Made by a program: the position numbers and the translations under genes. A stretch of DNA of 64,000 bases. Origin: a virus. Shown here piece after piece: positions 27,600 through 58,814 of this stretch (its first letter is position 1; each line of letters opens with the position of its first letter). The stretch lies in the IMG/VR virus record IMGVR_UViG_3300029305_003442. The stretch is one strand, 5' to 3'. The notes under the pieces were generated by a model. That model searched no databases and was not told the origin of the DNA. It saw only the letters and a list, made by a program, of their open reading frames with translations.

Positions 27600-28168
27600 T
27601 TAATATTTATGAAAATCTTATCATAAATGGATTAAATGTAGAATTAGCAAAAGATATTGAAAAATATTTGATTTATTTTTTAGACAATAACACTAATGAA
27701 AATTAGTTATTATTATATAATTTATTAAATATTTTAAAACGTCAATAGAATACATCAATTCTTCTAAATTTTTTAATTCAAGAAGTTGAATTAAAGTTAT
27801 TAAGATTAAGTTTTTCTAATAATGATATAAAAAATAATAAAGATTGTTATAATATTTCATCTTGTCAAAAAAATGAATCTAAAGAAGAATTAAAGAAAAT
27901 TTTAAAAGTAACTAATAAAGATTTATTCCCTCCAAAAGGGACTACAACTCGTATTATTAATAAAAGAAAAGAAGAAAATGAAGAACATGAATATGTTTTA
28001 GAGATAGATGATCAAGGTAATGTTTTAGAAATTTTAGAACATTATATAACAAAAAATGATGCAGATTCTATTGATATATTAAATGATTCTCCTTTAAGCA
28101 AACTTAAAGAAAAATATCTTAAAGAAGATAAAGAAAATAATTCTTTAACAGAAAATGATTTAGAATAA
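27569..28168 (+). CDS. Hypothetical helical protein (199 aa, 2 TAG) within rSAM cassette
   Basis: AAGGAG SD 27555-27560; ATG 27569; frame 2 to TAA 28166-28168. Confidence 0.45.
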
Positions 28169-28193
28169 TATTAATAATTTAAATATTTCTAAA

Positions 28194-29270
28194 ATGGGAT
28201 TAGGAATTATGCGTCATAATTCTAATCAACAATATACAAAACAACTAATAGAATATGCTTTAAATAATAAAATTAATTATTTTGAAGCTTGTGATTTCTA
28301 TTTACAAAACGCTTGTGAAATACGTCTTGGGGATGCTTTAAAATAGCATCCTCGGACTTCATATAAATTATGTGATAAACTTCCATTATCTACAATTCCT
28401 TATTTTATTCAAAAAAATAAAAATTGGAATTTAAATGATTATTTTAATAATCAATTAGCAAAATGTAGAACTGATTATTTTGATGTTTATTTGATTTAGG
28501 CTTTAGATGAACGTAATTTTAATTACTTGGAAAAATATCAAATTATTGATTTCTTTTTAAAACAAAAAGAACAAGGAAAAATTAAATTATTGGGTTTTTC
28601 TTTTCATGGAAAAGTTGATATTTTAAAAAAATTATTAGAAATGAAATGTTGGGATATCGTTTAGTTTCAATTAAATTATTATGATTGGATTTTAGGTGAG
28701 GCGAAAGAATTATATTTTTTAACAAAAGAATATGATTTACCTATTATTACAATGGGACCAACTAAAGGCGGATTATTAATAAATAATTTACCTAAAAAAT
28801 CATTAGATAGATTAAAAGAAAACAATATTAATCCAGTCTATTTATGTTATTCTTTTTTAGAAACTTTAGACAACGTTAAAATTATTTTATCAGGAGCAGA
28901 AACTTATGAAATGATTAAAGATAATTTAAATTATTTTGAAAATGAATCTCATAAATTAACTCCAGAAGAGTGGTAGCATATTAAACAAAATATTCAAGAT
29001 TATCAAGAATAGAGTTTAATTCAATGTACGGGATGTCGTTATTGTGTTCAAAGATGTCCTGCTAATTTACCAATAGATAAAATTTTTAAAGAATATAATA
29101 ATTTTATTCAATCTAAAGATTTATAGTCAAGAGAATTTTTATATTAGAATATTCATAGTTCTAACTCTACACAGAATTGTAAAAATTGTGGTCAATGTGT
29201 AAAAATTTGTCCGCAACATTTAAATATTCCAGAAATTTTTCATAAACAAATTTTCCCAGTAAGGAGATGA
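28194..29270 (+). CDS. Aldo/keto-reductase-family oxidoreductase fused to C-terminal 2x[4Fe-4S] ferredoxin domain (358 aa, 8 TAG)
   Basis: ATG 28194 in frame 3 with track ORF 28752-28976; C-terminal CTGCRYCVQRCP and CKNCGQCVKICP ferredoxin motifs; TGA 29268-29270. Confidence 0.6.
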
Positions 29271-34305: not shown

Positions 34306-34797
34306 TTATTCAGACCAATCAAATGATTTTGCCTAAGAGTTTAGATACCAGTGACCAATACATATTGCGTCACTTTCATCTTCTGTAGCTTGTTTATTAT
34401 AAAGCGTTTTTATTAATAACTAAGCTTCTTTTTTCTACTCTGGACGAGTTCTACTTTTTATACCGATTTTACTTTTCCATACTGTAGCTAATACAGCTTC
34501 AACTGGTATATCTAATTCTACAATCAATTCATAAATAACACCAAATACTTCTGCTAATGTTTTAAAGGTTTGAACATTTCCTGTTACATTAGATTGAAGT
34601 TGTATATCTTCCATTATAACTTTATTAATAGAATAAGTATCAATTAATTGATGAACATTTTTTCTAATATTAAGCAATCTATCTCCTAAATCGGATTGAT
34701 TACAAGTAAAATGTCCATAATCAATTAATTGATTATCTTCAAATATAGCATATCCAGTTATTTTAGAAGACTAATCTAAAGATAAGATTCTGCTCAT
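34306..34797 (-). CDS. RuvC-like Holliday-junction resolvase (163 aa) with 4 in-frame TAG
   Basis: MSRILSLD(Q)SSKITGYAIFE N-terminus and DAICIGHWYL C-terminal motif; ATGA overlap with dut stop; track ORF 34435-34677 is its middle. Confidence 0.6.
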
Positions 34798-35489
34798 ACT
34801 GATTCAAAAACATCTGCTTTTAATCCAAGAGAATTAAAAACATCAAGTAATTTTTCATCAATTTTAATTTCGTTATTTAAATTAATTGATTGTAAAGAAG
34901 TAGAACCAAATCCGCCTGTTCGTAAGCCAATAGCTACATCATCTTCAATGGTATAATAAGGTTTAATAATTCCTTGACCAATAATATCTCCTCGTTTTAA
35001 TTGAATATCAAATGGAGATAAATTAATTAATTGAAAGAAAATTTCACCTTCATTATCAGGATTATTATAATAATCAGCGTCAATAATACCAACTCCATTA
35101 GCAAGAATAAGCCAATATTTTAAAGGAGTAGAAGACCGCACGCTTAATTCAAGATAAGTATTTGGAAGTAATTCACATTTCATTCCAGTAGAAACTAAAG
35201 AAGGTTTAATTTTTGATGCTTTAGTAACAGCGGCAACATCTTCAAGAGTATAAGGTTTACTCATCTTTTGCGCAAGCTCATATTCAGCCTTCTTCTTTTC
35301 TTCTGAGTCAATTACATTCTAATGTAATTGGAATAGTTCATATCTACCAAGCCAATTCAATTCTTCAGAACAAGATGGAATTATAATATCTTCAGCTACA
35401 ACAAAATCATATCCAGCGCTCTGTTCTGTTTTTCTAATTGGTAAAGGTAAATCAATATCATTAAATCTACTTACTTTTTCAAATTTCAT
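34794..35489 (-). CDS. dut: dUTPase with extended N-terminal region (231 codons, 1 in-frame TAG at 35319-35321)
   Basis: Motif 1 SAGYDF in upstream segment (ATG 35489), then GIIDADYYNNPDNEGEI, GDIIGQGII, RTGGFGSTS in track ORF 34794-35264; both segments same frame. Confidence 0.7.
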
Positions 35490-36426: not shown

Positions 36427-36455
36427 ATTATATCATATTTTTTTATTTTTGTCAA
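36427..36455 (-). promoter_or_regulatory. Perfect consensus promoter TTGACA-17-TATAAT on minus strand (overlaps nrdG stop)
   Basis: fwd tgtcaa 36450-36455, attata 36427-36432. Confidence 0.55.
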
Positions 36456-36915
36456 GATAAATAATACGTTGATTGCGGCTTCCTCTCATAGGAAGTGTAA
36501 TGTCTCTTTCAGCTTCAATATAAGGTCCATCAATTAAACAAGTAATTAATTCTAAAATTTCTTTTATATTTGGATTATGAGGTAAATCATCGTAAGTATA
36601 CCCTGTCCATAAATAAATTTCTGTATCTGGTAATTTTTCTTTAACAGTTTTTATTACCAATAAAGTCAAAAAAGTATTTTCAGGACATAAAGGTTCTCCA
36701 CCCAAAATACTTAAAGAACGCTTAATACCATTAGCTTGAAGAGCTTCAATTATTTCATTAATTACATCAGTAGTAAATTCTAGTCCTCCGTCATAATCCC
36801 AAGTTTCGGGATTATGACAGCCAAGACAATGATGCGGACATCCTTGAGTATAGAAAGAAACTGATACACCAGTTGCCGCAGAAAAATCATTTTTAATTAA
36901 ACCTGCATATCGCAT
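36433..36915 (-). CDS. nrdG: Anaerobic ribonucleotide reductase activating protein (radical SAM)
   Basis: GCPHHCLGCHNPETW CxxxCxxC motif; 160 aa. Confidence 0.8.
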   Translation of the reverse strand: MRYAGLIKNDFSAATGVSVSFYTQGCPHHCLGCHNPETWDYDGGLEFTTDVINEIIEALQANGIKRSLSILGGEPLCPENTFLTLLVIKTVKEKLPDTEIYLWTGYTYDDLPHNPNIKEILELITCLIDGPYIEAERDITLPMRGSRNQRIIYLDKNKKI

Positions 36916-37544
36916 TATTCTTCCTCCTCTAAGTCTAAATCATGAACATCATCTGGATTAGCTACTTCGTAATAAAATATACATCTACAACTGGGATGAT
37001 ATGGTGGGAGATTAACATCTTCATCTGGCGGATATTCTCCGCCTTCACACATATCACATCCACTTTCAATTACTAATAAAGTAGCATTAATAGGTCTTTT
37101 ATTTTTCTTTACTGCATTTTCTACATTTTTAGTTTCTGTATTTAAAATTCTTTCAAATTTATAAACTAAATTATCTCTTATTTCTTTATAAGTTTTTTCT
37201 TTTAAAATATCTTGTCTTGTCTCTTCCCAAATTAAAGACAATCTATCTTGAATTGTTTTTCCATCTTCTTTATAAGTTAAATCAAAGATATTTTTGATAT
37301 TAAATTCTTCTACTTCTTCATATAATTTTTCTATATATTTACTTGTAATAAGATATGTTTCAGTTAATGATTCATAAAATAAATCTTCAATTTTTTTATA
37401 TGCTTTATCCCAAAGTTTAATATTAAAATTATTTGAATATTCTCTGACAGCTTTTAAAGATTTATTTATAATTTTTTCAAAATATTTATCTTTAGATTCG
37501 TCAATTAAATCTTCTAATTTAAGTATTTCTTTTCTGATACTCAT
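36915..37544 (-). CDS. Hypothetical protein (209 aa) inserted between nrdD and nrdG; C-terminal CxxC...HPSCRC zinc-binding motif reminiscent of Mu F/SPP1 gp7 C-terminus
   Basis: Track ORF; GCDMCEGGEYPPDEDVNLPPYHPSCRCIFY. Confidence 0.45.
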   Translation of the reverse strand: MSIRKEILKLEDLIDESKDKYFEKIINKSLKAVREYSNNFNIKLWDKAYKKIEDLFYESLTETYLITSKYIEKLYEEVEEFNIKNIFDLTYKEDGKTIQDRLSLIWEETRQDILKEKTYKEIRDNLVYKFERILNTETKNVENAVKKNKRPINATLLVIESGCDMCEGGEYPPDEDVNLPPYHPSCRCIFYYEVANPDDVHDLDLEEEE

Positions 37545-37549
37545 AACAA

Positions 37550-39841
37550 TTATCCATGTTTAACCCTTCGCTCTACCTCATCTTGTTTACCAAGGTTAAA
37601 AGCAGTTTTATAATTACCAGTTAAATAACCAGTAACTCTACGCAATTGTTGAATTTCTTTACTTCCGCATTCTGGACATTCATCATTAAATTCATCAGTA
37701 TATCCGCATTTAAGACAAGTATCATTTGGAACATTTACTGCGAAATAAGGAATATCTTTATCCATAGCATAATTTACTAAAATTTCTAATGCCTCAAGAT
37801 TATTTTTAATTCCACTATCCAATTCAACATAAGTAATACATCCAGCAGAAGAATAACAGGTTAATTGAGATTCAATATCAATTTTTTCAAATGGAGACAT
37901 CTCTATCCACACAGGTACATGCATAGAATTAGTAAAGAATTCTTTATCGGAAACATTCTCAATTACACCATATTTATCTTTAAATTTCTTTAAAGCAGTA
38001 TGACATAGGTTTTCCGCAGGTGAATAATAAACACCAAAATTTAATTTATATTCATTTTTAAATTGAGCACAACGAGTTTTAAACAATTCTTCAATTCGTT
38101 TTGCTAATTCCATTCCTTCTGGAGTAGTATGATTTTTTCCAATAAGAATTTGAAGCGTTTCAGCAAGACCTAATTGTCCAAGAGCAAGGGTACCATGCTT
38201 AAGAGCGGAACGTATTCCTTCTTCTGGAATATATCCTGCCATAAGTCCATTTTCATACATAAACTTAGCAGAATCAGGAGATTGACTACAAATCCATTCA
38301 AATCTTTCAATAAGCATATCTTTAGCATCATATATTGCTTTATCAAGAATTTCCATAAAAATATCTACAAGTTCAGTAGTATATTTATATTTATCTGTAA
38401 ATTGATTTTCCCACTCTTCTTTTGCTTCCATGGCTAATGTAGGAAGAATAATTGTTACAGGACAAATATTACCTCTACCATCTTTGAGTTGACCAAAACC
38501 ATTAATATCCCAACCATTTGCTGTGCGGCATCCCATCGTTGAGAAATAAGTTCTTGGGTCATTAATATCATATCCAGCATTACCAGACCAATCAACATTT
38601 GCGTAATTGGGATATAGTCTTTGAGCGGTTGATTTTAAAGCCAATTGGAATAAATCATAATTGGGGTCTCCAGGTTTACGATTTACACCTTTCATACATT
38701 GAAAGATTCCACAAGGGAAAATAGATGTTTTATGTAAAGCTCCAATACCTTCAATGGATACTTCAAGCAAAGCTTTAGTCACCATTCTACCTTCTGGTAA
38801 AGTACAAGTACCATAATTAATAGAAGTAAATGGCAACTGATTGCCTGAACGAGATTGAAGTGTATTAAGATTATGATACATTCCTTCTACGGCTTGATGT
38901 GTTTCTTTTTTTGTTTCAAATAGAGCTGCTTGACTTAAATATTTATCAAGATTAACAATATTACTAAAAGTGAAATCTTCATATTTAAGATTAAATTCTT
39001 TTAAATATTTTTCTTTATGATTTTCAACCCAATTATCTAATTCTTCATTTGGCATATCCAAAAGAGACAGAGCTAAAAATTCGTCAGTATGTTTTACATA
39101 TTCTAATACATAATGTTTAAAAAATGATTTGCGTATATAAGGCACCATGGTCCAGTCAATATGTGTCGCAGAAACACCACCAAATTGTTGTAAACTTTGT
39201 AATTGGAAAATAACCGCTACAAGCTGAAATGCTGTATTTACAGAACCTGCGGGACGCACATCTGTTTGTCTGGTATTAAATCCTTTAGCAAGCAAATCAT
39301 CAAAAGGAATAGATAAGCAATTATGTGAACCAACATAATAACTATTTAAGTCATGAATATAAATACGATTATTTAAATGATTTTCTCTTGCTTTTGGTGA
39401 TACAATAAAATCTAATGCTAATTGTTTCGTGACCACATCTCCAGCTTCACCTGTGCGGCCTCCAAAAGATGCTTCATCTACATTAGCATTTTGGTTTTGG
39501 ATATTTGTAGCATTTAATTTTTCTTTAACTGCGTCAATAAAATCATTTTCATAATGTCTAGCAACTTCTTTTTTATATCTATAACGAATATATTCTCTTG
39601 CTACATCACTGCGTTCAGAACGCATTAAATATTCTTCAACTTTATCTTGAACTTTTTCAACAGTAAATGGTTTATCTGAATTATGTACAGCATCTTTATA
39701 AATAGCTTCCGCTATATCAGCAGCTGTATCTGTTTCATAAAGTTTTCCATCAACTTCAAGAAAAGCTTTATTTATTGCGGTAATAATTTTACCTTTATTA
39801 AAAGGAACAAGTGTTCCATCTCTTTTATAAATTTGTACCAT
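37550..39841 (-). CDS. nrdD: Anaerobic (class III) ribonucleoside-triphosphate reductase
   Basis: 763 aa; C-terminal glycyl-radical region RRVTGYLTG; Cys-rich zinc ribbon CLKCGYTDEFNDECPECG; no in-frame TAG. Confidence 0.85.
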   Translation of the reverse strand: MVQIYKRDGTLVPFNKGKIITAINKAFLEVDGKLYETDTAADIAEAIYKDAVHNSDKPFTVEKVQDKVEEYLMRSERSDVAREYIRYRYKKEVARHYENDFIDAVKEKLNATNIQNQNANVDEASFGGRTGEAGDVVTKQLALDFIVSPKARENHLNNRIYIHDLNSYYVGSHNCLSIPFDDLLAKGFNTRQTDVRPAGSVNTAFQLVAVIFQLQSLQQFGGVSATHIDWTMVPYIRKSFFKHYVLEYVKHTDEFLALSLLDMPNEELDNWVENHKEKYLKEFNLKYEDFTFSNIVNLDKYLSQAALFETKKETHQAVEGMYHNLNTLQSRSGNQLPFTSINYGTCTLPEGRMVTKALLEVSIEGIGALHKTSIFPCGIFQCMKGVNRKPGDPNYDLFQLALKSTAQRLYPNYANVDWSGNAGYDINDPRTYFSTMGCRTANGWDINGFGQLKDGRGNICPVTIILPTLAMEAKEEWENQFTDKYKYTTELVDIFMEILDKAIYDAKDMLIERFEWICSQSPDSAKFMYENGLMAGYIPEEGIRSALKHGTLALGQLGLAETLQILIGKNHTTPEGMELAKRIEELFKTRCAQFKNEYKLNFGVYYSPAENLCHTALKKFKDKYGVIENVSDKEFFTNSMHVPVWIEMSPFEKIDIESQLTCYSSAGCITYVELDSGIKNNLEALEILVNYAMDKDIPYFAVNVPNDTCLKCGYTDEFNDECPECGSKEIQQLRRVTGYLTGNYKTAFNLGKQDEVERRVKHG

Positions 39842-39911
39842 TAATAAATCCTCCGAAAATATTAATTTGGGGCGACCCTATTATATTTAATAGTTGTTTT
39901 TTTATGGTTAA

Positions 39912-40466
39912 TTACTTCTGCCCAATGATGCTTAAAATTGTCTTTACGTTCTTCATTAAGTCTAATGTATTATCATTTTGTAATTCAATATATTCAAAAG
40001 GTAAATCTGAAAAATCTTTTTTATCAGTTCCATAACGTCTAACAATTTCATCAACATTTGGTTCATCTTCTCTATTTAATTGTCTTAAAAGTCTTTGTTT
40101 ATCAGAAGCTTTTATATAAAAAATAGTTACATCAATTTGAGGGTCTGATAGTAAAAATTCAACACGAGATGGGTCAAATACTCCTATATTTATAACATCT
40201 GAACGTAAACATTCATAATCAGTTCCATAAAACCAATCATTAAAAGTTGCCATTTCTACTAATTCATTATTAATAGCTTTTTGCGCAAATTGCTCTGGTG
40301 TTATAAAATAGTAATTAATACCTTCAATTTCATTATCTCTACGAGGACGTGTAGTATAACTAATAATAGAATGAACATCATTAGTATTTTCTAAAATCAT
40401 TCTTAATAATGTATCTTTACCAGAACCAGATTGCCCAATTAAAGCAATTATTTTATACTTCTTCAT
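39912..40466 (-). CDS. Guanylate-kinase-family nucleotide monophosphate kinase
   Basis: IALIGQSGSGKDTL P-loop; TTRPRRDNEIEGINYYFI guanylate-kinase signature. Confidence 0.6.
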   Translation of the reverse strand: MKKYKIIALIGQSGSGKDTLLRMILENTNDVHSIISYTTRPRRDNEIEGINYYFITPEQFAQKAINNELVEMATFNDWFYGTDYECLRSDVINIGVFDPSRVEFLLSDPQIDVTIFYIKASDKQRLLRQLNREDEPNVDEIVRRYGTDKKDFSDLPFEYIELQNDNTLDLMKNVKTILSIIGQK

Positions 40467-40692
40467 TTATGTCAATAGCCTCATCTTCATATTCATATTT
40501 TAATTGATTAGGTAATTCATTACGATAAAAAGTATATTTCCTTTTACAGGTAGGACAAAAATAAACATACTGTTCAGGATAAGTACATAAAACTTTACCA
40601 GTACTTTTTATTTCTTCATTACAATCTTCACAATAAAAGCTATCTATATAGATAGCTTTTACATATCGTCTTTTAATTTTCATCTTCTTCAA
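40453..40692 (-). CDS. Small zinc-ribbon protein (79 aa)
   Basis: CEDC...CPTC pairs. Confidence 0.4.
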   Translation of the reverse strand: MKKMKIKRRYVKAIYIDSFYCEDCNEEIKSTGKVLCTYPEQYVYFCPTCKRKYTFYRNELPNQLKYEYEDEAIDINEEV

Positions 40693-43180
40693 TTCCTCCT
40701 TGATAACGTTCCGAAGTTAATTTTAAATCAGTTTTATTTACAATTTCTTCAATTTTATACAACTGATGACCTGGCGTACTATTGTATTTTTTAACAATAA
40801 AATTATCTCCAGAACGAATACCCATAACCGCAATCATATTACCACGATTAAACCAAGATTTTTCTACAATCTTTTTAGTTCCATCAGGATTTTTGATAGA
40901 AATTTGTTTATCAAATAAAGAAAAATATTCTTTTCTAAATTTAACTTCTACAACTCCATGAGTTGTTAATAACGTTACTGTGCTTTTAACCTTATTTTTT
41001 GCTATACAGGTTCCGCAAATTTTATGAAGTTTAAACATATGAATTTCTTTTCCTCCACGAGCAAACACTTGGTCTACTATTGGTTCTTCTGGCAAAGCAA
41101 AGAAATCAACAAATCCATATTTATTATGATTTACATCAATTAATTCATGTTCGTGATAATAAAAACATAAAACTTCCATCTCCCAAGCAGAAATTGTACC
41201 TGAAGCATATTTCTCCCAATCTTCAAGAAAAACAGCATCATTTATTTTTACTAAGATTTCATCTTTATTTTCATTAATCCATGTTCTAAAAATATCCATC
41301 CAATTTTGATAAATTTTTTCCCATTGCTTAATATTCATAAAGAAAATTGTATCTTTTGTTATAATCAAATTATCACAATGTACTTCAATAAGAAAATTAA
41401 TAGCTCTTTCATCTAATTTATATAATTCATTATTAAATTTACAAATTGCTTTTAAATAACGATTAAATTCATATACTCTTCTTGCTAAAATTTGTTCTTC
41501 AGTTTCAGATGGAAGTAGATTATATTTAATTAATCCACCCATATTTTGTAGAGTAATTCTTTTTTTTCTATCGCAAGTTTCCCAAATATACCAAGCCATA
41601 CAAGTTTTACGTTCCATCATATCATCAAAAGCTCCACCCTTAATCAATGAAATCATAGCTTGCTTGCCTGGATTTACTTTATTCAAAAAATCTCGCGGAG
41701 ATACATAAGGTCTATGTTCAATGATAGATGCTACGACATCATCACCAACATTTAATAATCCTTTTAAACCAAAAAGAATTCTATTGTTCTCAGCATCTGG
41801 CGCAAAGCCATATTTAGATTTATTAATATTTGCTAAACTAACTTTAATACCAGCAGCTTGAATATCACCAATAGCTTTCGCAATTTTACCATAATCAGTA
41901 CTTGCGCCAGCTTCTTCATCAGTTGCGCCACTATTAACAATTAAACAAGCTGTATTCCAATAGATAGGATTAAATTTAGTTGCCAATAAAATTGTTTGAA
42001 TACCAACAAATGAATAAGGTAATGAATGATTTAAACTAAAAGCATATCCAAGTTGTGGAGCGACCGCAACTTCCCAGACATAATCTGCTATATTAGAATT
42101 TCCAATTTTTTCATACACTTGCGCTTTTAATTCCGGAATTTTTGACATCTGTTTTTTTGCTACTATTTTACGAGCAGCGTTTGCTTCACCTAAAGTAAAA
42201 TTAGCAACCTCCATCAAAATTTCCATCATTTGCTCTTGGATAGGACAGCAACCATAATATTTATCACAATGTTTATGCATTAACTCAATCATTTTTTCAG
42301 GCAAATGATTAAATTTCATTTCTTTATCAAAAATATTAATTCCTGATTTTTGAATGCGAGCATATCTATCTTGCTGACTTTCTTTACCTTTTTCAGACAT
42401 AAGTCTCATCATAGCATTTGCGGCAGTCATCTCTAAAGGATTTTGTGGTTTAAGTTTTTTCGCAATTGCTAATCCAACACCACCACTAAACTGAAATACA
42501 TCCAATATATCACCTGCGGCTAAATGATTCCAAATATAATTTTCAGATGTGTCAATTATTTCTGGATGAATATATTTATTATAAGTTTCTCTTAAACCAA
42601 TATTTTCAATTAAATTATCCTCATGTAACATTTCAAAACATTTAATAATTTTATCAGAAACTTCAGTTACAAGAAAATCATATTTAGTATCACCTGCTGC
42701 TTCCGCCGCATGTAAGTCAAAACAAGTAATTAAATCTCCATTTGGTGCTCTCATAAAAGATGCTGTATCAAATGGATTTTTATCATAAAGAATTACACCA
42801 GAAGCATGAATGCCACGTTTATTTACTAATCCCTCTATTGAAATGATAATATCAACCAATCCAGGATATTGATTAACTTCTTTTATAAAAGTTGTAACTG
42901 GTTTTCTATCTTTTTCTTCATCACCATATAATACTTCTGAAATAGACCATAAAAATCCACGTTCTTGAGGAATTAATGATGACATATATTGCGCTACATC
43001 TACATCTATTCCTTCTGGATATTCTTCACTTCTATAACCACGACAAGCTGTAAGAACAGCTGATTTAGTTCCTTCAGTTCCAAAAGTTGCTACCTGAACC
43101 AAACCAAATTCTCCACGTTCTTTACGAATTGCTTCAAAAATCGCTGGTCTTTTACTTGGAGCCAGGTCTATATCAATATC
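40673..43180 (-). CDS. dnaE: DNA polymerase III alpha (DnaE-type) exon 2 (835 aa; polymerase core), begins DIDIDLAPSKR...
   Basis: Reading frame of track ORF 40673-43102 is open upstream to 43180, where DIDID follows the exon-1 motif RFLNKERAELP; RGIHASGVIL palm motif; no TAG. Confidence 0.75.
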   Translation of the reverse strand, partial: DIDIDLAPSKRPAIFEAIRKERGEFGLVQVATFGTEGTKSAVLTACRGYRSEEYPEGIDVDVAQYMSSLIPQERGFLWSISEVLYGDEEKDRKPVTTFIKEVNQYPGLVDIIISIEGLVNKRGIHASGVILYDKNPFDTASFMRAPNGDLITCFDLHAAEAAGDTKYDFLVTEVSDKIIKCFEMLHEDNLIENIGLRETYNKYIHPEIIDTSENYIWNHLAAGDILDVFQFSGGVGLAIAKKLKPQNPLEMTAANAMMRLMSEKGKESQQDRYARIQKSGINIFDKEMKFNHLPEKMIELMHKHCDKYYGCCPIQEQMMEILMEVANFTLGEANAARKIVAKKQMSKIPELKAQVYEKIGNSNIADYVWEVAVAPQLGYAFSLNHSLPYSFVGIQTILLATKFNPIYWNTACLIVNSGATDEEAGASTDYGKIAKAIGDIQAAGIKVSLANINKSKYGFAPDAENNRILFGLKGLLNVGDDVVASIIEHRPYVSPRDFLNKVNPGKQAMISLIKGGAFDDMMERKTCMAWYIWETCDRKKRITLQNMGGLIKYNLLPSETEEQILARRVYEFNRYLKAICKFNNELYKLDERAINFLIEVHCDNLIITKDTIFFMNIKQWEKIYQNWMDIFRTWINENKDEILVKINDAVFLEDWEKYASGTISAWEMEVLCFYYHEHELIDVNHNKYGFVDFFALPEEPIVDQVFARGGKEIHMFKLHKICGTCIAKNKVKSTVTLLTTHGVVEVKFRKEYFSLFDKQISIKNPDGTKKIVEKSWFNRGNMIAVMGIRSGDNFIVKKYNSTPGHQLYKIEEIVNKTDLKLTSERYQGGIEEDEN

Positions 43181-44362
43181 CGTTTATTGGACTATATTTT
43201 TCATAATGACTTACTAAGAGCATTTTACTTCAGTCATTACTAGAACATCTTTCAGACGGTGCTTATCTCCGCCTTACATAAATAGTCTCTACACATTTAA
43301 TCTTATTTTTCTATTTGTTTCCAATAATAGCCTTTATATAAAGTTCCATTTTTAATCGCTTTATCTAATTGAGTGTGTCCTTTCATTCCTAAGAATTGTA
43401 AGACTGCGGTTTTAGCATTAAATATTTGAATTAAATTGTAATTTTCATCATACATTTCAATTCGTTTTCCATTTAATGCTTGATTACCACTTTTACCATA
43501 CATACCATTTTTTTCGCCAGCGGTTTTACCTTTACTATTTACAGACATTTTCTACTTAGACTCTTCTGTATGTTTTTTACCATACATTCCATTATTAGAA
43601 CCTTTTGTTTTTTCACTCATTTTTTGTTTAAACTCTTCAGTTCTATAAGGAGAGTTGTCTCTTTCAAATTCTGCCCAATAAGATAAAAATGCTTTAGTTT
43701 TTTCACTATGGTATTTTCCATACATTCCATTATTCTTACCACGATTTACTTCACTTAATTTTCGGCACAAAACTTCTTTTTCTTCTGGTGTATATCCTGC
43801 GGTAGTGTTTCCTCCACAACCGCCCTCATGAATATTATAAAACAATGGATTTGATGTGGCATTATATAAGGCAATAAATTGTTTTTCTTTTTCACTATTT
43901 TCTAAATCATTTTTAGAAACAAATAAAATGGACTTTGTAAAACAGTCTTTTCCATATTTGGCAATTTCTTTTTTCAATTCTTTTCCGCTGCCTAAATATG
44001 AATCATCTAATTCTCCATAATGTTTTCCGATATATTTCATACCATTTATATTATTAGTAGTTAAATAAATATAATGTTGTTTCATTTAAACAACCCCCTT
44101 TCATATATATTTAACTTTTAGAATTAGACAATGACCTGACTTTGTCCAAGATTTTTAGCACGGTATTCCCAATCTAACCTTTTTTAGGTCATAGGGTCTC
44201 TTAGTCAGTTGATTCGCATTTATATAACATAAATCTTATTTCGCTGATACCGTTAGCCTGCGGTTACTCGTCTCGCCGGTCGGATGACCGGGCCGCCGCA
44301 GACACCCATTAAGCAATGGTTAATGTTCTTTTTTTACAACTGCCCAATATCAATATTAGACT
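43181..44362 (-). ncRNA. Group I self-splicing intron (about 1182 nt) in dnaE, carrying a homing-endonuclease ORF
   Basis: 5' exon ends ...GAACUGCCU (44363); intron-internal guide GGGCAGUU (44345-44338) pairs with AACUGCCU giving U.G at the splice site; intron ends with G (43181) before exon-2 GAUAUUGAU; GC-rich structured segment 44150-44330 and 43200-43300 flanks the ORF. Confidence 0.65.
43303..44085 (-). CDS. Intron-encoded GIY-YIG homing endonuclease with NUMOD3-like repeats and C-terminal DNA-binding region; in-frame TAG at 43552-43554
   Basis: YIYLTTNNINGMKYIGKH GIY-YIG motif; repeated NNGMYGK(K/Y)H; track ORFs 43552-44085 and 43303-43548 are in the same frame separated by TAG + one codon. 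Confidence 0.7.
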
Positions 44363-45733
44363 AGGCAGTTCGGCTCTCTCTTTATTTAAAAATCTCCAAT
44401 AAGGGAGACCCCAACGAATTGGGTCAAGTTGAGTAATACCAAGCAAATAATTTGAAAGAAAACCGGTCGCAGAACCTCGTCCAGGTCCAACAATTGAACC
44501 GCATTCCCAAAACAAATCAATATAATGTTTAAAAGTATTGAAATAAGCGAAAAGACAATCATCAAGTTTTTCTCCAATAAACTTAATTACATCTGCCTCA
44601 ATTTCAATACGATTAATATATTCTTCATTAAATAAATTTTTATTTATTAATTCTTGTAGACATTCATTAATCCAATATCTTTCTTGAGATTCATCAGATA
44701 TTAAAAGTGATTTAATAATCGGCCAATTAGTATCTAATTCATCTTTTAATGAATTATTAATACCAAAATAAGATAAAGTTTTAGGATAATCTTTTACTTT
44801 TACTTTTGGAATAATTTGTTTTCTTTCAATTGAATAAAATTCAATTTTATTTTTTATTTCATTTGTATTATTTAAAATCCATTCTGAAATATCATCATCT
44901 TGATAAGCATATGTTAATAATTCTTTAGCTTCATTATAATCCATTAAACGAGCAAATTCATAAAATGAATCAACTTCTCGTTCTCCACCTTTAGAATTTA
45001 AATAAGCTTTATGAACCCATCTATCTTGACTTGTATAATAATGAGCATCAGTTCCTGCGACTAATTTAATTCCAAAAGATTGAGAAATAGAGTATAATTT
45101 TTTATTAACCAATACTTGGTCTTTTGTAGTTGCTGGGGCGCATTCTAAATAGAAATCATCACCAAATAATTCAAGACAATAATTAATAAAATCAATTATT
45201 TTTGAATAATATACTTTCATTGTTTCCATGTCTTGAACTTCTTCAGCTAAACAAAATTGTAATAAATTTGATGATAATTCTCCACCAAGACAAGCTGTTG
45301 TAGCTATTAAATGTCCTTTATATTTATTAACAATAGTTGATAATTCTTTTTTTAAAACTGGAACTCTTTCCATTTTTCTATCAACATATAAATTATACCA
45401 AGCTATTGAACTTAATTCTTTTAATGCCATATAACCAATTTTATCTTTGGCAATTAAAATAAAGTGATAATATTTTTGACCACTACTTCTATCATCTGTT
45501 AAATAAATTTCATTACCAAGTGCAATTGTAAAATCTGGATTTGTCTCTCTCAATTTCTTAGCATATTGATTTACTTCCATGTGCGCAGATAAACATTCAT
45601 GGTCTGTAATTGCTATACCGTTTAAACCCAATTCAATTGCTTTATCAATTAAATCTTTAGGTCTATTTATACAATCAAGTAAGCGAATATTTGAATACAT
45701 TGTATGATTATGACAATTAAAATAACTGTTCAT
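44363..45733 (-). CDS. dnaE: DNA polymerase III alpha (DnaE-type) exon 1 (457 codons; PHP domain)
   Basis: MNSYFNCHNHTMYS...GIAITDHE PHP motifs; WRFLNKERAELP at exon end; track ORF 44309-45733 runs on into intron for 17 codons. Confidence 0.75.
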
Positions 45734-45770
45734 ATATATTCACTCTCCATTTTTATTTTTTCATATAAAT

Positions 45771-45799
45771 ATTATACCATATTTTATATGAAAAATCAA
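45771..45799 (-). promoter_or_regulatory. Promoter-family member upstream of dnaE (TTGATT-17-TATAAT)
   Basis: fwd aatcaa 45794-45799, attata 45771-45776. Confidence 0.5.
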
Positions 45800-45990
45800 G
45801 TTGTATATTCTTGAAGTACAGAAGCTAATGTACGCCTAAAATCTTCATTTCTTTGAACTCGTAATTTTAAATCATCCATTTCAGCTTTTTCTTTATCTAA
45901 TTGTTTTGCCATAGCTAATAATGAATGAGCGGCTGCTTCTAAATCGCGAGCAGCTTGTGTTAAGTTTTTTGAAGTTTCGTTTTCATCCAT
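45796..45990 (-). CDS. Small hypothetical protein (64 aa)
   Basis: Track ORF. Confidence 0.35.
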   Translation of the reverse strand: MDENETSKNLTQAARDLEAAAHSLLAMAKQLDKEKAEMDDLKLRVQRNEDFRRTLASVLQEYTT

Positions 45991-45993
45991 AGA

Positions 45994-47184
45994 TTAACTA
46001 CTCCTTATTAATACTAATTTATCTTTAGCTCTTGTGATTGCTGTATATAACCATTTTTGATGTTCTTCTTTATTGAATGGAAATCTTTCTTCAAATACTA
46101 AAACTTTATTCCATTCACTACCTTGTGCTTTATGACAGGTAATAGCATAAGCATATGCAAAATCATATGGTGGCTCTAAATCACAATTTTTATTTTTTTT
46201 CATTTTATATATTTCAATTGGAGTTAATGTTGAAGTATTATTAACTAAATAATTATAATCAATTGGAATATTCATAAAAGTATCATCTTCAAAATCCATA
46301 TGAGTCATCATATATTCAATTGGTGCCGTTCTAATATATCTAAATGTATATTTATTTTGTTTAAAAAAAGAATCTATTGTTCCAATAGAGCCATTTGTGA
46401 GTGGCCAATTTCCATTAGCAGAATAGAATTCCCAATGATTAGATAGACTGATAATCTTATCTCCGACACATGGCTCTGGGCCATATCCCTTTTTTTCTCT
46501 AATAAAATTATTTATGTAATTTCTTGTATCATTAGTGGCGCAAAGAATTTGGTCTGCCCAATCATACATTCCAGTACAAATTTCGTTTTTAGAAAATAAT
46601 TTTACTTGTTCTCCTAATGCTTGAAAGCTACTTAAAGGCTTACCCTCTCTTACATGCATTGATAGTCTAATAATTTCACTATCTTGCGCTTGCCGCATAA
46701 TTTCATCAAGAAAAATATGCGGATTATCTAATACATGATTATTGTCTTCTGGATTTACAGGTGGTAACTGGCCGGGGTCGCCGCAAGCTAATACATATAT
46801 TTTATGACTTAATAACAAATCCCACATAGGCTTAGGTAACATAGATACTTCATCAACAACAATTACTTTATAAGCATCTTCTAAGTTTTTCCGTGGTTCA
46901 TGAATAAACTTTCCACTTGGTAATTGTTTAGAATAATAAAGTAATTTATGCGCAGTAGTAGCATTATAGCATCCTTTTTGTTTAAGAACAGTAGCTGCTT
47001 TACCAGTAAAAGCTATATAACAAACTTCAGTTACTGGGTCTACTGGTAAAGCTGAAATAATATATTTAATTAAAGTACTTTTACCACTACCAGCATATCC
47101 TGAAATTATAGTATATGGTTCTTTATCAAAATATCTTTTAATAGAAATAGTTAAACCTTCTGTTTGTTTATTTGTTAATATCAT
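45994..47184 (-). CDS. RecD/Dda-like SF1 DNA helicase
   Basis: GYAGSGKST Walker A; VVDEVSM; C-terminal ITCHKAQGSEW. Confidence 0.7.
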   Translation of the reverse strand: MILTNKQTEGLTISIKRYFDKEPYTIISGYAGSGKSTLIKYIISALPVDPVTEVCYIAFTGKAATVLKQKGCYNATTAHKLLYYSKQLPSGKFIHEPRKNLEDAYKVIVVDEVSMLPKPMWDLLLSHKIYVLACGDPGQLPPVNPEDNNHVLDNPHIFLDEIMRQAQDSEIIRLSMHVREGKPLSSFQALGEQVKLFSKNEICTGMYDWADQILCATNDTRNYINNFIREKKGYGPEPCVGDKIISLSNHWEFYSANGNWPLTNGSIGTIDSFFKQNKYTFRYIRTAPIEYMMTHMDFEDDTFMNIPIDYNYLVNNTSTLTPIEIYKMKKNKNCDLEPPYDFAYAYAITCHKAQGSEWNKVLVFEERFPFNKEEHQKWLYTAITRAKDKLVLIRSS

Positions 47185-47186
47185 TT

Positions 47187-47420
47187 TTAATCCTCTTTAT
47201 TATTTACATGAGCATGTACTAATTGTTCTAAACAATTATAAAAGTGCATTTTTTGAGTTTCTGCTTGATTATGTTCTTGTTCATAATCATGACTACGCTC
47301 TGCTTTTAATCTAGCAACTTCGTCACAGAGAATAGCATATCTAAAATAAATGCTATCAAAACCAAAATCTAATCTATCTTTATATAAATTTTCTAATGCT
47401 TTTTCCTCTATTGTAATCAT
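47187..47420 (-). CDS. Small hypothetical protein (77 aa)
   Basis: Track ORF. Confidence 0.35.
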   Translation of the reverse strand: MITIEEKALENLYKDRLDFGFDSIYFRYAILCDEVARLKAERSHDYEQEHNQAETQKMHFYNCLEQLVHAHVNNKED

Positions 47421-47776
47421 AAGTTAAACTCCTTTATAAAATTTTCGTACCATTTATCAATTTGCTCAAAAATTTCTAAATCACTTTTTTCTTTTGGTTT
47501 CTCGGTCTCAGCTTCCAACACCGGCCGGAGCAATTTTTCCTCCATTAAATAGACAGTATTCATTATATGGTCATATGTAAGCAATTTATTTTCAGTATCA
47601 TTAATCCTAGCATCTAAATTTCTCACCTAATCTTCTATTGTGTCTATACGACCGTAACGACCAAGTGCTTTAACTATATCTGTAACTTCATATAATGAAA
47701 TTCTATATTTATCTTCAAATTGATTTTCAAACCATGTGAAATTATCTTCACCAAGCTTTATTTGAGTTTGTATCAT
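47417..47776 (-). CDS. Hypothetical protein (119 aa, 1 TAG)
   Basis: ATG 47776; in frame with track ORF 47417-47626. Confidence 0.4.
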
Positions 47777-47815
47777 AAATATATTTACCCCTCACTTATT
47801 ATTATTTCTATATAT

Positions 47816-47844
47816 ATTATATCATATTTTTTTATAAAAATCAA
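47816..47844 (-). promoter_or_regulatory. Promoter-family member (TTGATT-17-TATAAT)
   Basis: fwd aatcaa 47839-47844, attata 47816-47821. Confidence 0.5.
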
Positions 47845-47846
47845 AA

Positions 47847-47869
47847 AGGGAAGATTTTATTCTTCCCTT
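47847..47869 (-). terminator. Hairpin terminator immediately upstream of promoter
   Basis: AAGGGAAGA-ttttat-TCTTCCCTT, T-run on minus strand. Confidence 0.4.
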
Positions 47870-48687
47870 ACAAAATATTCATATGCTTTTAAAGCATTTG
47901 TTTTTCTTACAGAATAATAAGCAGAATTGCAACGTTCATAACTTTTAGCAAAAGCTAGTGCTACTTCTTGAGCATCTTGTAATGCTAAAAACTTTTCATA
48001 TGAAAAATCTTTTTGATAAGCGCGCCCAAAAGTATTAATTTCATATTCAATAGTATCTCTTAAAAAATCACATTGCTCTTGTAAACTTCCACCCACAATA
48101 GAACTATAATATGTGGTATTCCATTGGCACATTCCATAATGAACTTTGCCACCATATAGCCAATATTGAATATCTAAAGTATTACCTCCAACTTCAGCCA
48201 TTATATTTCCTAAAATACCAGCAATTACATAATTATTATATCCTAAATTTTTTAAATATAACCAAATTTCTGTTGCTACTGGATAATCTGTTTTTCTTTC
48301 TAACCAGAAATTATAATCATTTGTATATTTAGTATATAATTCATGTGCTTCTTCCCATTCTCTTTTGGCTAATTGAATAATTAAATGATTATCTTCATAT
48401 CTAAGAGCCCGAGCCATTTCTGCCATTTGATGAGCAATTTCTTTTTTATCCTGATAGTAAGAAATTTTTGTTGTTAAAATTTCTAAATCATCGGTTTCAA
48501 TATATTCATGTGGAATAGTTTTTTCTGTTGAATATACTGGTTCACATTCTTCAGCCGGTACATCAGCTACACAAGTTGAAACTGGTGATAATATAATTGG
48601 TTCATCAGCTTTAATTAAAGTAGTATTTGGATTTATGTGAAAGAAAATAGATAAAGTTAAAGTGAATACAATAATATATTTTTTCAT
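47857..48687 (-). CDS. Secreted lysozyme-like protein (signal peptide MKKYIIVFTLTLSIFF; tail-tip-lysozyme-like motif AGILGNIMAEVGG ... GMCQWN); candidate endolysin
   Basis: Internal ATG 48687 with AGGAGA SD chosen over track start 48816, which overlaps the RecJ-like gene. Confidence 0.5.
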   Translation of the reverse strand: MKKYIIVFTLTLSIFFHINPNTTLIKADEPIILSPVSTCVADVPAEECEPVYSTEKTIPHEYIETDDLEILTTKISYYQDKKEIAHQMAEMARALRYEDNHLIIQLAKREWEEAHELYTKYTNDYNFWLERKTDYPVATEIWLYLKNLGYNNYVIAGILGNIMAEVGGNTLDIQYWLYGGKVHYGMCQWNTTYYSSIVGGSLQEQCDFLRDTIEYEINTFGRAYQKDFSYEKFLALQDAQEVALAFAKSYERCNSAYYSVRKTNALKAYEYFVREE

Positions 48688-57769: not shown

Positions 57770-58759
57770 TTATTTGTTACCTCGTGTCATATTATAACCA
57801 AATGTTTCACTTTGATAATATTTAATCCAAAATTTTTCTTTTTCATTAAGTTGCGTTCTATCACATTCTTCAAGAATTTCAAAAGAGAAATTTTCTACTT
57901 TATCACTTTTCATAGCAGTATATAATTTATTGTTTGAACCATCAATACCTAAACCAGCTTTAATATGTGTTTTAAATCTATCAGCAATATTAACTGATTG
58001 TCCTATATAACACATTTGATTATTTAAATTAGTAATTTTATAAATACCAATTTTATTTTCTGTACCTATTAATCTGCCAATTAAATCACTTGTAGGTTTT
58101 TCATAATAAGTTTTCCAAATAATTTTATTTAATGGTTCTTCATTTCTTAAATAAGGAATTATTGAACGCAATTTTTCAATTTCATTTTTATCTGTATCAG
58201 ATAATTGTATTTTATAAAATTCTTTTTTATTGTTTTCTTCTAAAGTTCTTTTATTCGCTTGAATAGCCGCATTTACAATAGAAGTCTAATCATTAATTTT
58301 TTGTTCCAAAAGAGATAAAGTATCCTAATGCTATTTTATAGTTTCTGCGGTTTGCTGCGCAAGTTCTTCCATTAAATTAAAATATTCTTCTTCACATTGC
58401 TTTTTATTCTTTTCAAATTCAATTCGCATATTTTCAGTAGATAATTCAAATTCTTTTTCCGCAATCTATTTACTTTGTTTATAAATAACTTCTCCAGCTT
58501 GCTTTGCCTATTCTTCAATTAACATAATACTTTTCTATGTCTCTTCTCTTTTGGATTCTAAAAATTTTATATTTCCTTTTAAATTTAAAGAATCTAATTT
58601 TAATGATTGATTTTCATTTGTCAATATTTCATTTTCTTTTTGTAATTCTTCGTTTTTAAATGCTATTTCTTTATTATAAGTAATATTTTTTTTACCTTTT
58701 AATAAATAAAAACAAAGCATTCCAAATAGAAAACTTAAAATACATAAAAATATTGTCAT
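57770..58759 (-). CDS. TM-anchored coiled-coil protein with C-terminal GIY-YIG nuclease domain (329 aa, 6 in-frame TAG)
   Basis: Track ORFs 58535-58759 (TM + coiled coil) and 57770-58171 (IGIYKITNLNNQMCYIGQSVNIADRFKTH) are in one frame (990 nt); intervening 122 codons verified open except TAG. Confidence 0.5.
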
Positions 58760-58814
58760 ATTTTAGAAAAATTAAGGGATAGATGTTTAGTCTATCCCTA
58801 TATTTATATTATAA

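What the first reader, a model, noticed from the sequence alone, without database searches (positions are those of the whole stretch)
43303..44085. Intron homing endonuclease gene itself requires TAG read-through
The GIY-YIG/NUMOD3 catalytic part (177 aa) and the C-terminal DNA-binding part (81 aa) are in one frame separated by TAG-AAA-ATG. Under the standard code the nuclease would be truncated or made as two pieces. Under the phage code a full-length I-TevI-like enzyme of about 260 aa is made. This may restrict full-length endonuclease activity to the recoded phase.
Basis: partly seen in the sequence, partly recalled or inferred. Interest (0 to 1): 0.5.

Follow-up and report, generated by a model that had tools for sequence, protein, structure and literature searches.

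The report
Amber-recoded intron homing endonuclease gene
A selfish DNA-cutting enzyme gene sits inside a self-splicing intron of a gut phage's DNA polymerase gene and carries one in-frame TAG, which this phage reads as an amino acid, so the full enzyme can only be made once the phage's altered genetic code is active; the same idea is already published for TGA-recoded phages.

Summary
On the minus strand, 44085..43303 is one frame: 177 codons, TAG (43554..43552), AAA, ATG, 79 more codons, then TAA.

The window is a 28% GC phage. Its plus-strand tail/structural block holds at least 127 in-frame TAGs. The replication block around dnaE holds none.

The ORF lies in a 1182-nt group I intron (44362..43181). 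The intron splits dnaE just before the catalytic DIDID motif.

The two halves are one protein:
- A NUMOD3 motif and a predicted helix straddle the TAG.
- The ATG after it is the invariant Met of that motif.
- Homologs, including standard-code Bacillus phage G gp330, are contiguous.
- The closest relatives have CAA (Gln) at codon 178.
- Relatives in other TAG-recoded phages carry in-frame TAGs at 17 different columns, with conserved sequence downstream.

Across related loci the endonuclease gene uses TAG far more often than the dnaE exons that host it.

The proposed timing role is plausible but unproven. It was already proposed by Borges et al. for a TGA-recoded intron endonuclease in Agate phages. 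The closest relatives have no TAG in this gene, so the TAG is not obligatory. I class this as a new member of a known kind, of moderate interest.

The parts
43303..44085 (-). Full homing endonuclease reading frame: 260 codons plus TAA, with one in-frame TAG at codon 178
   Evidence: Searches give the sequence and translation. PHROG 314 (homing endonuclease) E 3e-34 over residues 1-225. Identical 260-aa database entry P0001, called with TAG as Gln.
43552..43554 (-). In-frame TAG, codon 178, most likely read as Gln
   Evidence: One search shows the codon. Codon 178 is CAA in 10 of 22 distinct related loci, including the 95% and 87-88% relatives, and TAG independently in L094. It lies in predicted helix 174-182 and inside the Pfam NUMOD3 match 149-181.
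43801..44085 (-). GIY-YIG catalytic domain, about residues 1-95
   Evidence: Pfam GIY-YIG residues 3-76, E 2.8e-4, 21.6 bits, just under the 22.6 cut-off. Foldseek to the I-TevI catalytic domain 1MK0/1LN0, probability 1.00, target TM-score 0.66.
43543..43641 (-). Second NUMOD3 motif (residues 149-181), which straddles the TAG. Further GxNNGMYGK copies lie at about residues 116-124 and 189-198.
   Evidence: Pfam NUMOD3 E 4e-18, best stretch 149-181 covering profile positions 5-37 of 37. A family profile aligns residues 148-189 to the I-TevI DNA-binding domain 1I3J, E 0.029.
43306..43473 (-). C-terminal compact DNA-binding-like module, about residues 205-260
   Evidence: AlphaFold2 model: strand-strand-helix-helix-strand over residues 208-258, pLDDT 83-90. 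Foldseek gives weak matches to the I-HmuI C-terminal region (1u3e, probability 0.90) and to the DNA-binding protein 8b6e (probability 0.99). Low dN/dS against relatives, 0.06-0.19.
44094..44101 (-). Shine-Dalgarno sequence AAAGGGGG, 8 nt upstream of the endonuclease ATG
   Evidence: Most genes in the window have AAGGAG-type sites. No such site precedes the ATG at codon 180.
43181..44362 (-). Group I intron (1182 nt) carrying the endonuclease ORF. 277 nt lie 5' of the ORF and 122 nt lie 3' of it.
   Evidence: Exon ends restore ...WRFLNKERAELP|DIDIDLAPS... in frame. P1 pairing shows 6 co-varying exon/guide combinations, all 8 of 8 paired, with U.G at the splice site. G is the last intron base in 21 of 21 relatives. 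No Rfam hit.
44338..44345 (-). Internal guide sequence GGGCAGUU, which pairs with the last 8 exon bases AACUGCCU (44363-44370) to form P1
44363..45733 (-). dnaE exon 1 (PHP domain and start of the Pol III alpha core, 457 codons), with no in-frame TAG
40673..43180 (-). dnaE exon 2 (begins DIDIDL; finger and HhH domains), with no in-frame TAG

Best explanation
The frame 44085..43303 is a single gene for an I-TevI-like GIY-YIG homing endonuclease of 260 aa. It has an N-terminal GIY-YIG nuclease, three NUMOD3 helices and a small C-terminal DNA-binding module. It is carried in a loop of a group I intron that interrupts the phage's dnaE (Pol III alpha) gene immediately before the catalytic DIDID motif.

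The phage belongs to the gut phages that read TAG as a sense codon, most probably Gln (code 15). They use TAG heavily in structural genes and avoid it in replication genes. Codon 178 is such a TAG.

While the host's standard decoding prevails, ribosomes starting at the gene's own Shine-Dalgarno site stop at codon 178. They release a 177-aa fragment that lacks the third NUMOD3 and the DNA-binding module, and this fragment is presumably inactive for site-specific cleavage. Once TAG is decoded, the full enzyme is made and can cut intron-less dnaE alleles in co-infecting relatives.

What is shown here:
- the anatomy of the gene and its junction;
- that the two halves are one protein;
- the intron;
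- genome-wide TAG recoding;
- Gln at the homologous codon in relatives;
- enrichment of TAG in this endonuclease family relative to its host gene.

What is inferred:
- the amino acid inserted at TAG;
- the early/late timing;
- that the truncated product is inactive;
- any selective benefit. One candidate benefit is keeping ribosomes off the ribozyme core so that dnaE mRNA splices, as is known for I-TevI.
For: Recoding. Treating TAG as sense raises ORF coverage from 47 to 68.6 kb. The plus-strand genes at 1-29685 hold 127 in-frame TAGs, which is 17-67% of Gln-type codons in most of them. The replication block 36433-47196 holds 0 of 88, apart from the endonuclease gene at 1 of 9. One plus-strand protein matches a PHROG tail family.

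One protein. The NUMOD3 match 149-181 and the PHROG 314 match 1-225 cross the TAG. M180, S181 and K177 are invariant family residues, so the ATG is part of the motif and not a new start. Predicted helix 174-182 spans the TAG. A family profile aligns across the TAG to the I-TevI DNA-binding domain 1I3J. Phage G gp330 is contiguous.

Meaning of TAG. Codon 178 is CAA in the 95%, 88% and 87% relatives and in 10 of 22 loci.

Family pattern. In-frame TAGs occur at 17 alignment columns in related genes, with conserved sequence downstream. dN/dS is 0.05-0.2 on both sides of codon 178. TAG share of TAG+CAA+CAG is 33/189 in the endonuclease gene versus 11/772 in the dnaE exons. Using one representative per lineage it is 23/123 versus 10/561, and 8 lineages are higher against 1 lower.

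Intron.

Precedent. Borges et al. report a preferentially TGA-recoded group I intron endonuclease in an early gene of Agate phages and propose the same delay. Translation of I-TevI must be delayed for td intron splicing (review PMC3073962).
Against: No suppressor tRNA or other code-change gene is present in the 64-kb window, or in about 7 kb beyond its right end. The decoding agent is therefore unseen.

The TAG allele is an almost clonal recent lineage. Only 3 substitutions separate its two variants, so selection on the C-terminal part since the TAG arose cannot be measured.

One TAG among 9 Gln-type codons is not significantly different from the surrounding early genes. My own Fisher calculation from the counts gives about p = 0.09.

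The closest relatives, apparently also recoded, have no TAG in this gene. The TAG is therefore not required for the element to persist and may be a neutral synonymous change.

Pooled enrichment counts are not phylogenetically independent. Residues aligned with TAG across the family are E > Q > K, which fits Gln but does not prove it.
Confidence: 0.75

Rival explanations
1. Neutral recoding without regulation. The TAG is simply a synonymous Gln codon that drifted into a gene with no need for early expression. The enzyme is still made full-length late in infection, but the TAG has no adaptive timing role.
For: The nearest relatives (95% and 87-88% identity) have CAA at codon 178 and no TAG anywhere in the gene. 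TAG positions differ between lineages. The TAG allele is recent and clonal. Other non-structural genes in the minus-strand block also carry occasional TAGs.
Against: Across lineages the endonuclease gene uses TAG about 13-fold more often than the dnaE exons on the same pre-mRNA, with 8 lineages higher against 1 lower. A second GIY-YIG gene in the replication block also has 6 TAGs while its neighbours have none. Borges et al. found a statistically preferential recoding of an intron endonuclease family in Agate phages.
Confidence: 0.3
2. Decaying gene. The TAG is a nonsense mutation in a homing endonuclease gene that is being lost, as often happens once an intron is fixed in a population.
For: Homing endonuclease genes do commonly degenerate (established knowledge). 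The allele is recent, so no purifying selection can be demonstrated since the TAG arose. No suppressor tRNA was seen.
Against: TAG is a sense codon at least 127 times in this same window. The rest of the gene is intact, with no frameshift, and dN/dS against relatives is 0.05-0.13. Going from CAA to TAG needs two substitutions, most simply through CAG, as expected for a synonymous path. Relatives tolerate up to 7 in-frame TAGs while keeping the protein sequence conserved.
Confidence: 0.08
3. Two-piece enzyme. The 177-aa nuclease part and the 81-aa DNA-binding part are made separately. Translation terminates at TAG and re-initiates at the ATG 3 nt downstream, and the pieces work together or have separate roles.
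For: The TAG-AAA-ATG spacing would permit termination-reinitiation. Gene callers using the standard code report an 81-aa ORF.
Against: That ATG encodes the invariant Met of the NUMOD3 motif, which is present whether or not a TAG precedes it. No Shine-Dalgarno site precedes it, whereas most genes here, including the endonuclease start, have a strong one. The break would fall inside a predicted helix. No homolog is split there.
Confidence: 0.05

Closest known systems
Preferentially TGA-recoded group I intron endonuclease in an early gene of Agate-clade phages (Borges et al., bioRxiv 10.1101/2021.08.26.457843)
   Same: In both cases a homing endonuclease gene sits inside a self-splicing intron in an early or replication gene of a stop-codon-recoded gut phage. 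The gene carries in-frame recoded stops while its host gene avoids them. The inferred consequence is the same: no endonuclease until the code switch. One relative of the present family (L091/L009/L010) is itself TGA-recoded, with TGA aligned to Trp in both the endonuclease gene and dnaE.
   Different: Here the recoded codon is TAG (Gln), not TGA (Trp). The host gene is identified as dnaE, with the insertion site mapped to the active-site motif. This particular genome has only one recoded codon. Whether this phage belongs to the Agate clade could not be tested.
I-TevI in the phage T4 td group I intron
   Same: Both have a GIY-YIG nuclease joined by a long linker with a NUMOD3-type minor-groove helix to a small C-terminal DNA-binding domain. 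In both, the ORF lies in an intron loop and ends just upstream of the P7 core strand. For I-TevI, translation is kept late, and early translation impairs splicing (PMC3073962). A hairpin around the start codon is predicted here too.
   Different: Sequence similarity to I-TevI is weak (profile E 0.029). There are three NUMOD3 copies and no evident zinc finger. The proposed delay mechanism is an in-frame recoded stop, not a late promoter plus a hairpin that hides the ribosome-binding site. The target gene is dnaE, not td.
Bacillus phage G gp330, a homing endonuclease lying between DnaE-like gene pieces gp329 and gp331
   Same: It is the closest annotated homolog: 45.7% identity over residues 5-255, E 1e-55. 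It is also lodged inside a split dnaE-like polymerase gene.
   Different: It is in a standard-code phage and has no in-frame stop. It sits at a different position in the polymerase gene, after about 766 residues instead of 457 (the 766-residue figure is my own calculation from the coordinates).
TAG-recoded (code 15) gut phages such as crAss-like, Lak, Jade and Sapphire
   Same: These phages show the same division: TAG-rich structural and lysis genes alongside TAG-poor replication genes.
   Different: This window has a DnaE-type polymerase and Shine-Dalgarno-rich starts. No suppressor tRNA is visible in the 64 kb.

Membership tests
GIY-YIG homing endonucleases (I-TevI-like) | N-terminal GIY-YIG catalytic domain | tested here: met
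   The motifs YIYLT...MKYIGKH are present. Pfam GIY-YIG scores E 2.8e-4 (21.6 bits, 1 bit under the gathering score), and PHROG 314 scores E 3e-34. Foldseek to the I-TevI catalytic domain 1MK0 gives probability 1.00.
GIY-YIG homing endonucleases (I-TevI-like) | Linker with NUMOD3-type DNA-binding helix or helices, contiguous with the nuclease | tested here: met
   Pfam NUMOD3 scores E 4e-18 (65 bits against a cut-off of 20.4), in 2 stretches, the best at residues 149-181, which crosses codon 178. Homologs are contiguous.
GIY-YIG homing endonucleases (I-TevI-like) | C-terminal sequence-specific DNA-binding domain | tested here: inconclusive
   A confident compact fold is predicted at residues 208-258. 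Matches to solved structures are only weak: I-HmuI 1u3e at E 0.8 and probability 0.90, and 8b6e at E 0.14.
GIY-YIG homing endonucleases (I-TevI-like) | Cleaves the intron-less allele near the insertion site | not testable with these tools
   This needs purified protein and an intron-less dnaE substrate.
Group I self-splicing intron | P1 helix between the 5' exon end and an internal guide, with U.G at the splice site | tested here: met
   Six distinct exon/guide combinations across 20 loci are all 8 of 8 paired, and U.G is invariant.
Group I self-splicing intron | Terminal G, and exon ligation that restores the host reading frame | tested here: met
   G precedes GATAT in 21 of 21 loci. The junction gives ...RAELP|DIDIDL..., the conserved Pol III alpha active-site motif. 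The spliced DnaE is 1291 aa with no stops.
Group I self-splicing intron | Conserved catalytic core (P3-P9) recognisable by a covariance model | tested here: not met
   Rfam gave no hit at the gathering threshold or at E up to 10. A GACUAU/AUAGUC pair of candidate P7 strands, and hairpins with compensatory changes, are visible by eye in the related sequences but were not modelled. The large ORF insertion may explain the miss.
Group I self-splicing intron | Self-splicing activity | not testable with these tools
   This needs in vitro transcription and splicing, or RNA-seq across the junction.
TAG-recoded (code 15) phage | Many in-frame TAGs in otherwise intact conserved genes, with TAA/TGA as the stops | tested here: met
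TAG-recoded (code 15) phage | Phage-encoded suppressor tRNA(CUA) or other code-change machinery | tested here: inconclusive
   ARAGORN found no tRNA in the window, in L182 (about 7 kb beyond the right end) or in 12 related loci. The rest of the genome was not available.
TAG-recoded (code 15) phage | TAG decoded as Gln | tested here: inconclusive
   Codon 178 and several other TAG columns align mainly with CAA (Gln) in relatives, but E and K are also common. No proteomic data are available.
Recoded intron endonuclease in an early gene (Borges et al.) | The endonuclease gene uses the recoded stop preferentially relative to its host gene | tested here: met
   At family level the share is 23/123 versus 10/561 (one representative per lineage, Fisher 2e-11, not independent), with 8 lineages higher against 1 lower. 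In this window alone the figures are 1/9 versus 0/37 in dnaE, which is not significant.

The most novel reading that the evidence does not exclude
The in-frame recoded stop acts as an early-phase ribosome barrier that benefits both the phage and the selfish element. The endonuclease ORF ends about 15 nt before the candidate P7 core strand of the ribozyme. Stopping ribosomes at codon 178, or at other TAGs in relatives, would keep them off the core while dnaE pre-mRNA must splice to make the replicative polymerase. The code switch would then license homing only late, when co-infecting genomes are present. On this reading, stop-codon recoding would be a general device by which mobile endonuclease genes are timed, including the second GIY-YIG gene at 57770-58762 with 6 TAGs. 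It would replace the late promoter and RBS hairpin used by T4 I-TevI.
Probability: 0.25. Interest if true: 0.6.

Novelty: new member of a known kind. Interest (0 to 1): 0.35.

Why it matters
This is a clean, mapped example in which a mobile endonuclease gene inside an early essential gene depends on the phage's late genetic code. The intron boundaries, the insertion at the polymerase active site, the exact recoded codon and a Gln codon in sister alleles are all defined.

It extends a published observation on TGA-recoded Agate phages to TAG recoding. It also shows that the same intron/endonuclease family moves among TAG-recoded, TGA-recoded and apparently standard-code phages.

Practically, standard-code annotation splits this gene into 177-aa and 81-aa products, and public databases hold both versions.

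It also offers a simple experimental handle, TAG versus CAA at one codon, to test whether recoding really times protein production in such phages.

Tried and rejected
1. Rfam scans of the whole window and of 43100-44450 at E up to 10 found no group I intron model hit. The intron call therefore rests on P1 covariation, the terminal G and the exon junction.

2. A tRNA search of the window, of 12 related loci and of two extended loci found nothing. I could not walk further along the genome because only proteins encoded in the window may be looked up.

3. A test for selection within the TAG-bearing lineage had no power. The alleles are 100% or 99.4% identical, with 1 synonymous and 2 non-synonymous differences.

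4. Megablast of 40000-48000 against GenBank phages gave no match, so the phage itself is not in that collection.

5. A single-sequence search of the PDB gave only a spurious ArfA hit. A family profile was needed to reach I-TevI.

6. A first look-up of the ligase gene failed because I supplied the stop-to-stop frame. It was repeated with the correct start.

7. The promoter scan found no more sigma-70-like sites than in shuffled sequence and no terminator, so there is no evidence for a separate promoter for the endonuclease gene.

8. Considered and rejected: a sequencing or assembly artefact (identical in many independent assemblies), and a split two-gene enzyme (see rival explanations).

Full report
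**Observation.** On the minus strand, 44085..43303 is one reading frame. It holds 177 codons (MKQHYIYL...KKHTEESK), then TAG at 43554..43552, then AAA, then ATG. The ATG opens 81 codons (MSVNSKGK...YYWKQIEK) that end in TAA. The allele is not an assembly error. A 1451-nt stretch covering the intron and exon ends is 100% identical in 9 full-length and 2 partial contigs from different samples and pipelines (JGI, ENA, Logan). Three further contigs are 99.4% identical and also have the TAG.

**Genomic setting.** The window has 28% GC. Treating TAG as a sense codon raises total ORF length (ORFs of at least 100 aa) from 47.1 to 68.6 kb and the longest ORF from 837 to 2076 codons. TGA as sense does much less. 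The plus-strand genes between 1 and 29685 carry 127 in-frame TAGs, typically 17-67% of TAG+CAA+CAG. The minus-strand replication block 36433-47196 has 0 TAG against 88 CAA/CAG, apart from the gene in question at 1 TAG against 8 CAA. That block includes the NrdD-type anaerobic reductase and its activase, guanylate kinase, dnaE and a helicase. One plus-strand protein matches a PHROG tail family. Gene starts have strong AAGGAG-type Shine-Dalgarno sites. This is the published pattern of TAG-recoded gut phages: structural and lysis genes recoded, replication genes variably so (Borges et al., bioRxiv 10.1101/2021.08.26.457843). No tRNA gene is present in the window, or in about 7 kb beyond its right end.

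**The intron.** The gene lies between two pieces of a DnaE-type polymerase. The first is 45733..44363 (PHP domain and start of the Pol III alpha core). The second is 43180..40673 (finger and HhH domains). Joining them gives ...WRFLNKERAELP|DIDIDLAPSKRP..., an uninterrupted 1291-aa protein. From general knowledge of E. coli DnaE (...PDFDVDF..., catalytic Asp401/Asp403), the junction falls just before the active-site aspartates. That is a typical target for a homing element.

The last eight exon bases AACUGCCU pair with GGGCAGUU at intron positions 18-25, with U.G at the splice site. Across 20 related loci there are six different exon/guide combinations, for example AACUCGGU/GCCGAGUU and AGUUACCU/GGGUAACU. 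All are 8 of 8 paired and keep the U.G. In 21 of 21 loci the intron ends in G directly before GATAT. Hairpins in the 3' part show compensatory changes by eye. Rfam gives no hit, possibly because of the 783-nt ORF insertion. I therefore call it a group I intron of 1182 nt (44362..43181) on P1 covariation, the terminal G and the exon junction, not on a core model. The ORF has its own Shine-Dalgarno site (AAAGGGGG, 44101..44094). It ends about 15 nt upstream of a GACUAU...AUAGUC pair, the candidate P7. This arrangement resembles I-TevI in the T4 td intron (PMC3073962).

**Are the two halves one protein?** Several lines say yes.
- With Gln placed at codon 178, Pfam NUMOD3 (E 4e-18) has its best stretch at residues 149-181, and PHROG 314 (homing endonuclease, E 3e-34) covers 1-225. 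Both cross the TAG.
- The local sequence HTEESK-x-KMSVNSKG is the NUMOD3 consensus. K177, M180 and S181 are invariant in a 25-sequence family alignment. The ATG is therefore the motif's conserved Met and not a new start codon. No Shine-Dalgarno site precedes it.
- An AlphaFold2 model (mean pLDDT 74.5) places helix 174-182 across the TAG. It predicts a confident compact module at residues 208-258.
- Foldseek matches the N-terminal part to the I-TevI catalytic domain (1MK0, probability 1.00). It matches the C-terminal module weakly to I-HmuI (1u3e, probability 0.90).
- A family profile aligns residues 148-189 to the I-TevI DNA-binding domain 1I3J (E 0.029).
- Standard-code Bacillus phage G gp330, itself lodged in a split dnaE-like gene, aligns to residues 5-255 in one piece (45.7% identity, E 1e-55). 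228 phage records cover at least 80% of the query in one place.
- Of the 120 best database homologs, 115 span the junction. The only 177-aa entries (P0105, P0107) are this same allele called under the standard code.

**What does TAG stand for?** At the DNA level, codon 178 is CAA in 10 of 22 distinct related loci. These include the nearest relatives at 95% (L164-166) and 87-88% (L082, L167-169) protein identity. It is TAG again, independently, in the distant L094. CAA to TAG needs two changes, most simply through CAG, which is a synonymous path under code 15. Across the family, TAG occurs in frame at 17 columns within the aligned protein. It sits opposite E, Q and K most often, and opposite mostly Q at columns 178, 220 and 239. 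This fits Gln but does not prove it.

**Is the downstream part still a gene?** Pairwise dN/dS between the window and relatives is 0.05-0.20 for residues 1-177 and 0.06-0.19 for residues 179-260. The TAG lineage itself is nearly clonal, so selection since the TAG arose cannot be measured. The stronger argument is comparative. Related genes in other recoded phages carry 1 to 7 in-frame TAGs at different places, with the protein sequence conserved after each.

**Is the endonuclease gene recoded more than its host gene?** All 22 related loci have the gene at the same dnaE site. Counting TAG against CAA+CAG gives 33/189 in the endonuclease genes and 11/772 in the dnaE exons. With one representative per lineage the figures are 23/123 and 10/561 (Fisher 2e-11). 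Nine of the ten dnaE TAGs come from a single locus, L008. Eight lineages have a higher share in the endonuclease gene and one has a lower share. These counts are not phylogenetically independent. For this window alone, 1/9 against 0/37 is not significant. The closest relatives have no TAG in the gene although nearby ORFs contain TAGs, so the TAG is not obligatory.

**Mechanism.** In the early phase the intron is transcribed as part of the dnaE pre-mRNA. Under host decoding, a ribosome starting at the endonuclease's own site would stop at codon 178. That yields a nuclease plus two NUMOD3 helices, without the third NUMOD3 or the C-terminal DNA-binding module. By analogy with I-TevI, whose affinity and specificity reside in the C-terminal domain (general knowledge), this fragment should not cut specifically. 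Once TAG is decoded, the 260-aa enzyme is made. A possible benefit is that ribosomes are kept away from the ribozyme core while the polymerase mRNA must splice. For I-TevI, premature translation causes a splicing defect (Gibb and Edgell 2010, as summarised in PMC3073962). A hairpin enclosing the start codon is also predicted (z = -2.6). These steps are inferred, not shown.

**Comparison with what is known.** Borges et al. report that in TGA-recoded Agate phages a group I intron endonuclease inserted in an early gene is one of three families preferentially recoded. They state that in-frame stops should prevent its production until late in infection. The present case is the TAG counterpart. One member of the same endonuclease/intron family (L091, L009, L010) sits in a TGA-recoded phage, with TGA aligned to Trp in both the endonuclease gene and dnaE. 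Others (L011, L095, L098) show no recoding in 20 kb. I could not test whether this phage belongs to the Agate clade.

**Verdict.** The finding is a well-defined new example of a published phenomenon, so novelty is modest. Interest is 0.35.

Noticed in passing
window 57770-58762 (-): A second GIY-YIG gene lies in the replication block: 329 aa, with an N-terminal transmembrane and coiled-coil part and a C-terminal GIY-YIG domain (Pfam E 1.4e-9; PHROG homing endonuclease families). It has 6 in-frame TAGs (30% of Gln-type codons) while neighbouring genes have none. Standard-code gene callers split it into fragments of 61, 32 and 133 aa (L184).
   Followed up: partly
L167-L169 (about 3860-5690 in L167/L168); also L003, L004, L089, L094: Close relatives carry further interruptions of dnaE downstream of the shared intron. 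In L168/L169 one is a second intron-like insert with a 285-aa GIY-YIG ORF. The polymerase gene is a hotspot for mobile elements, and intron content differs between near-identical phages.
   Followed up: no
L091 = L009/L010/L092 (HEG codon 96; dnaE ...PF*RYLN...): This relative appears to be TGA-recoded, not TAG-recoded. An in-frame TGA aligns with Trp in the endonuclease gene and another in dnaE, and TGA-as-sense gives the largest ORF gain. The same intron/endonuclease family therefore spans phages with different recodings.
   Followed up: partly
window 44060-44110 (-): A predicted RNA hairpin pairs GUUGUUU (just after the Shine-Dalgarno site) with AAACAAC (codons 2-4), enclosing the endonuclease AUG (MFE -18.2 kcal/mol, z = -2.6). 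[quoted passage not shown] The pairing is kept in several relatives but not in all.
   Followed up: partly
window 24831-27599 and 28149-29270 (+): Two adjacent radical-SAM-like proteins with CxxxCxxC motifs are followed by a protein with 4Fe-4S-type Cys clusters. They sit in the TAG-rich block next to a Ser/Thr/Asn/Cys-rich low-complexity ORF (23649-24821). This may be a peptide-modification cassette within the late region.
   Followed up: no
window 34306-34803 (-): A RuvC-like resolvase (Pfam E 1.8e-10) has 4 in-frame TAGs, which fits a late (DNA packaging stage) function despite lying on the minus strand.
   Followed up: no
window 44312-44362 (-): The dnaE exon 1 frame runs 17 codons into the intron before a TAA. 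This is the usual in-frame stop soon after a group I 5' splice site that keeps exon-translating ribosomes out of the ribozyme.
   Followed up: no
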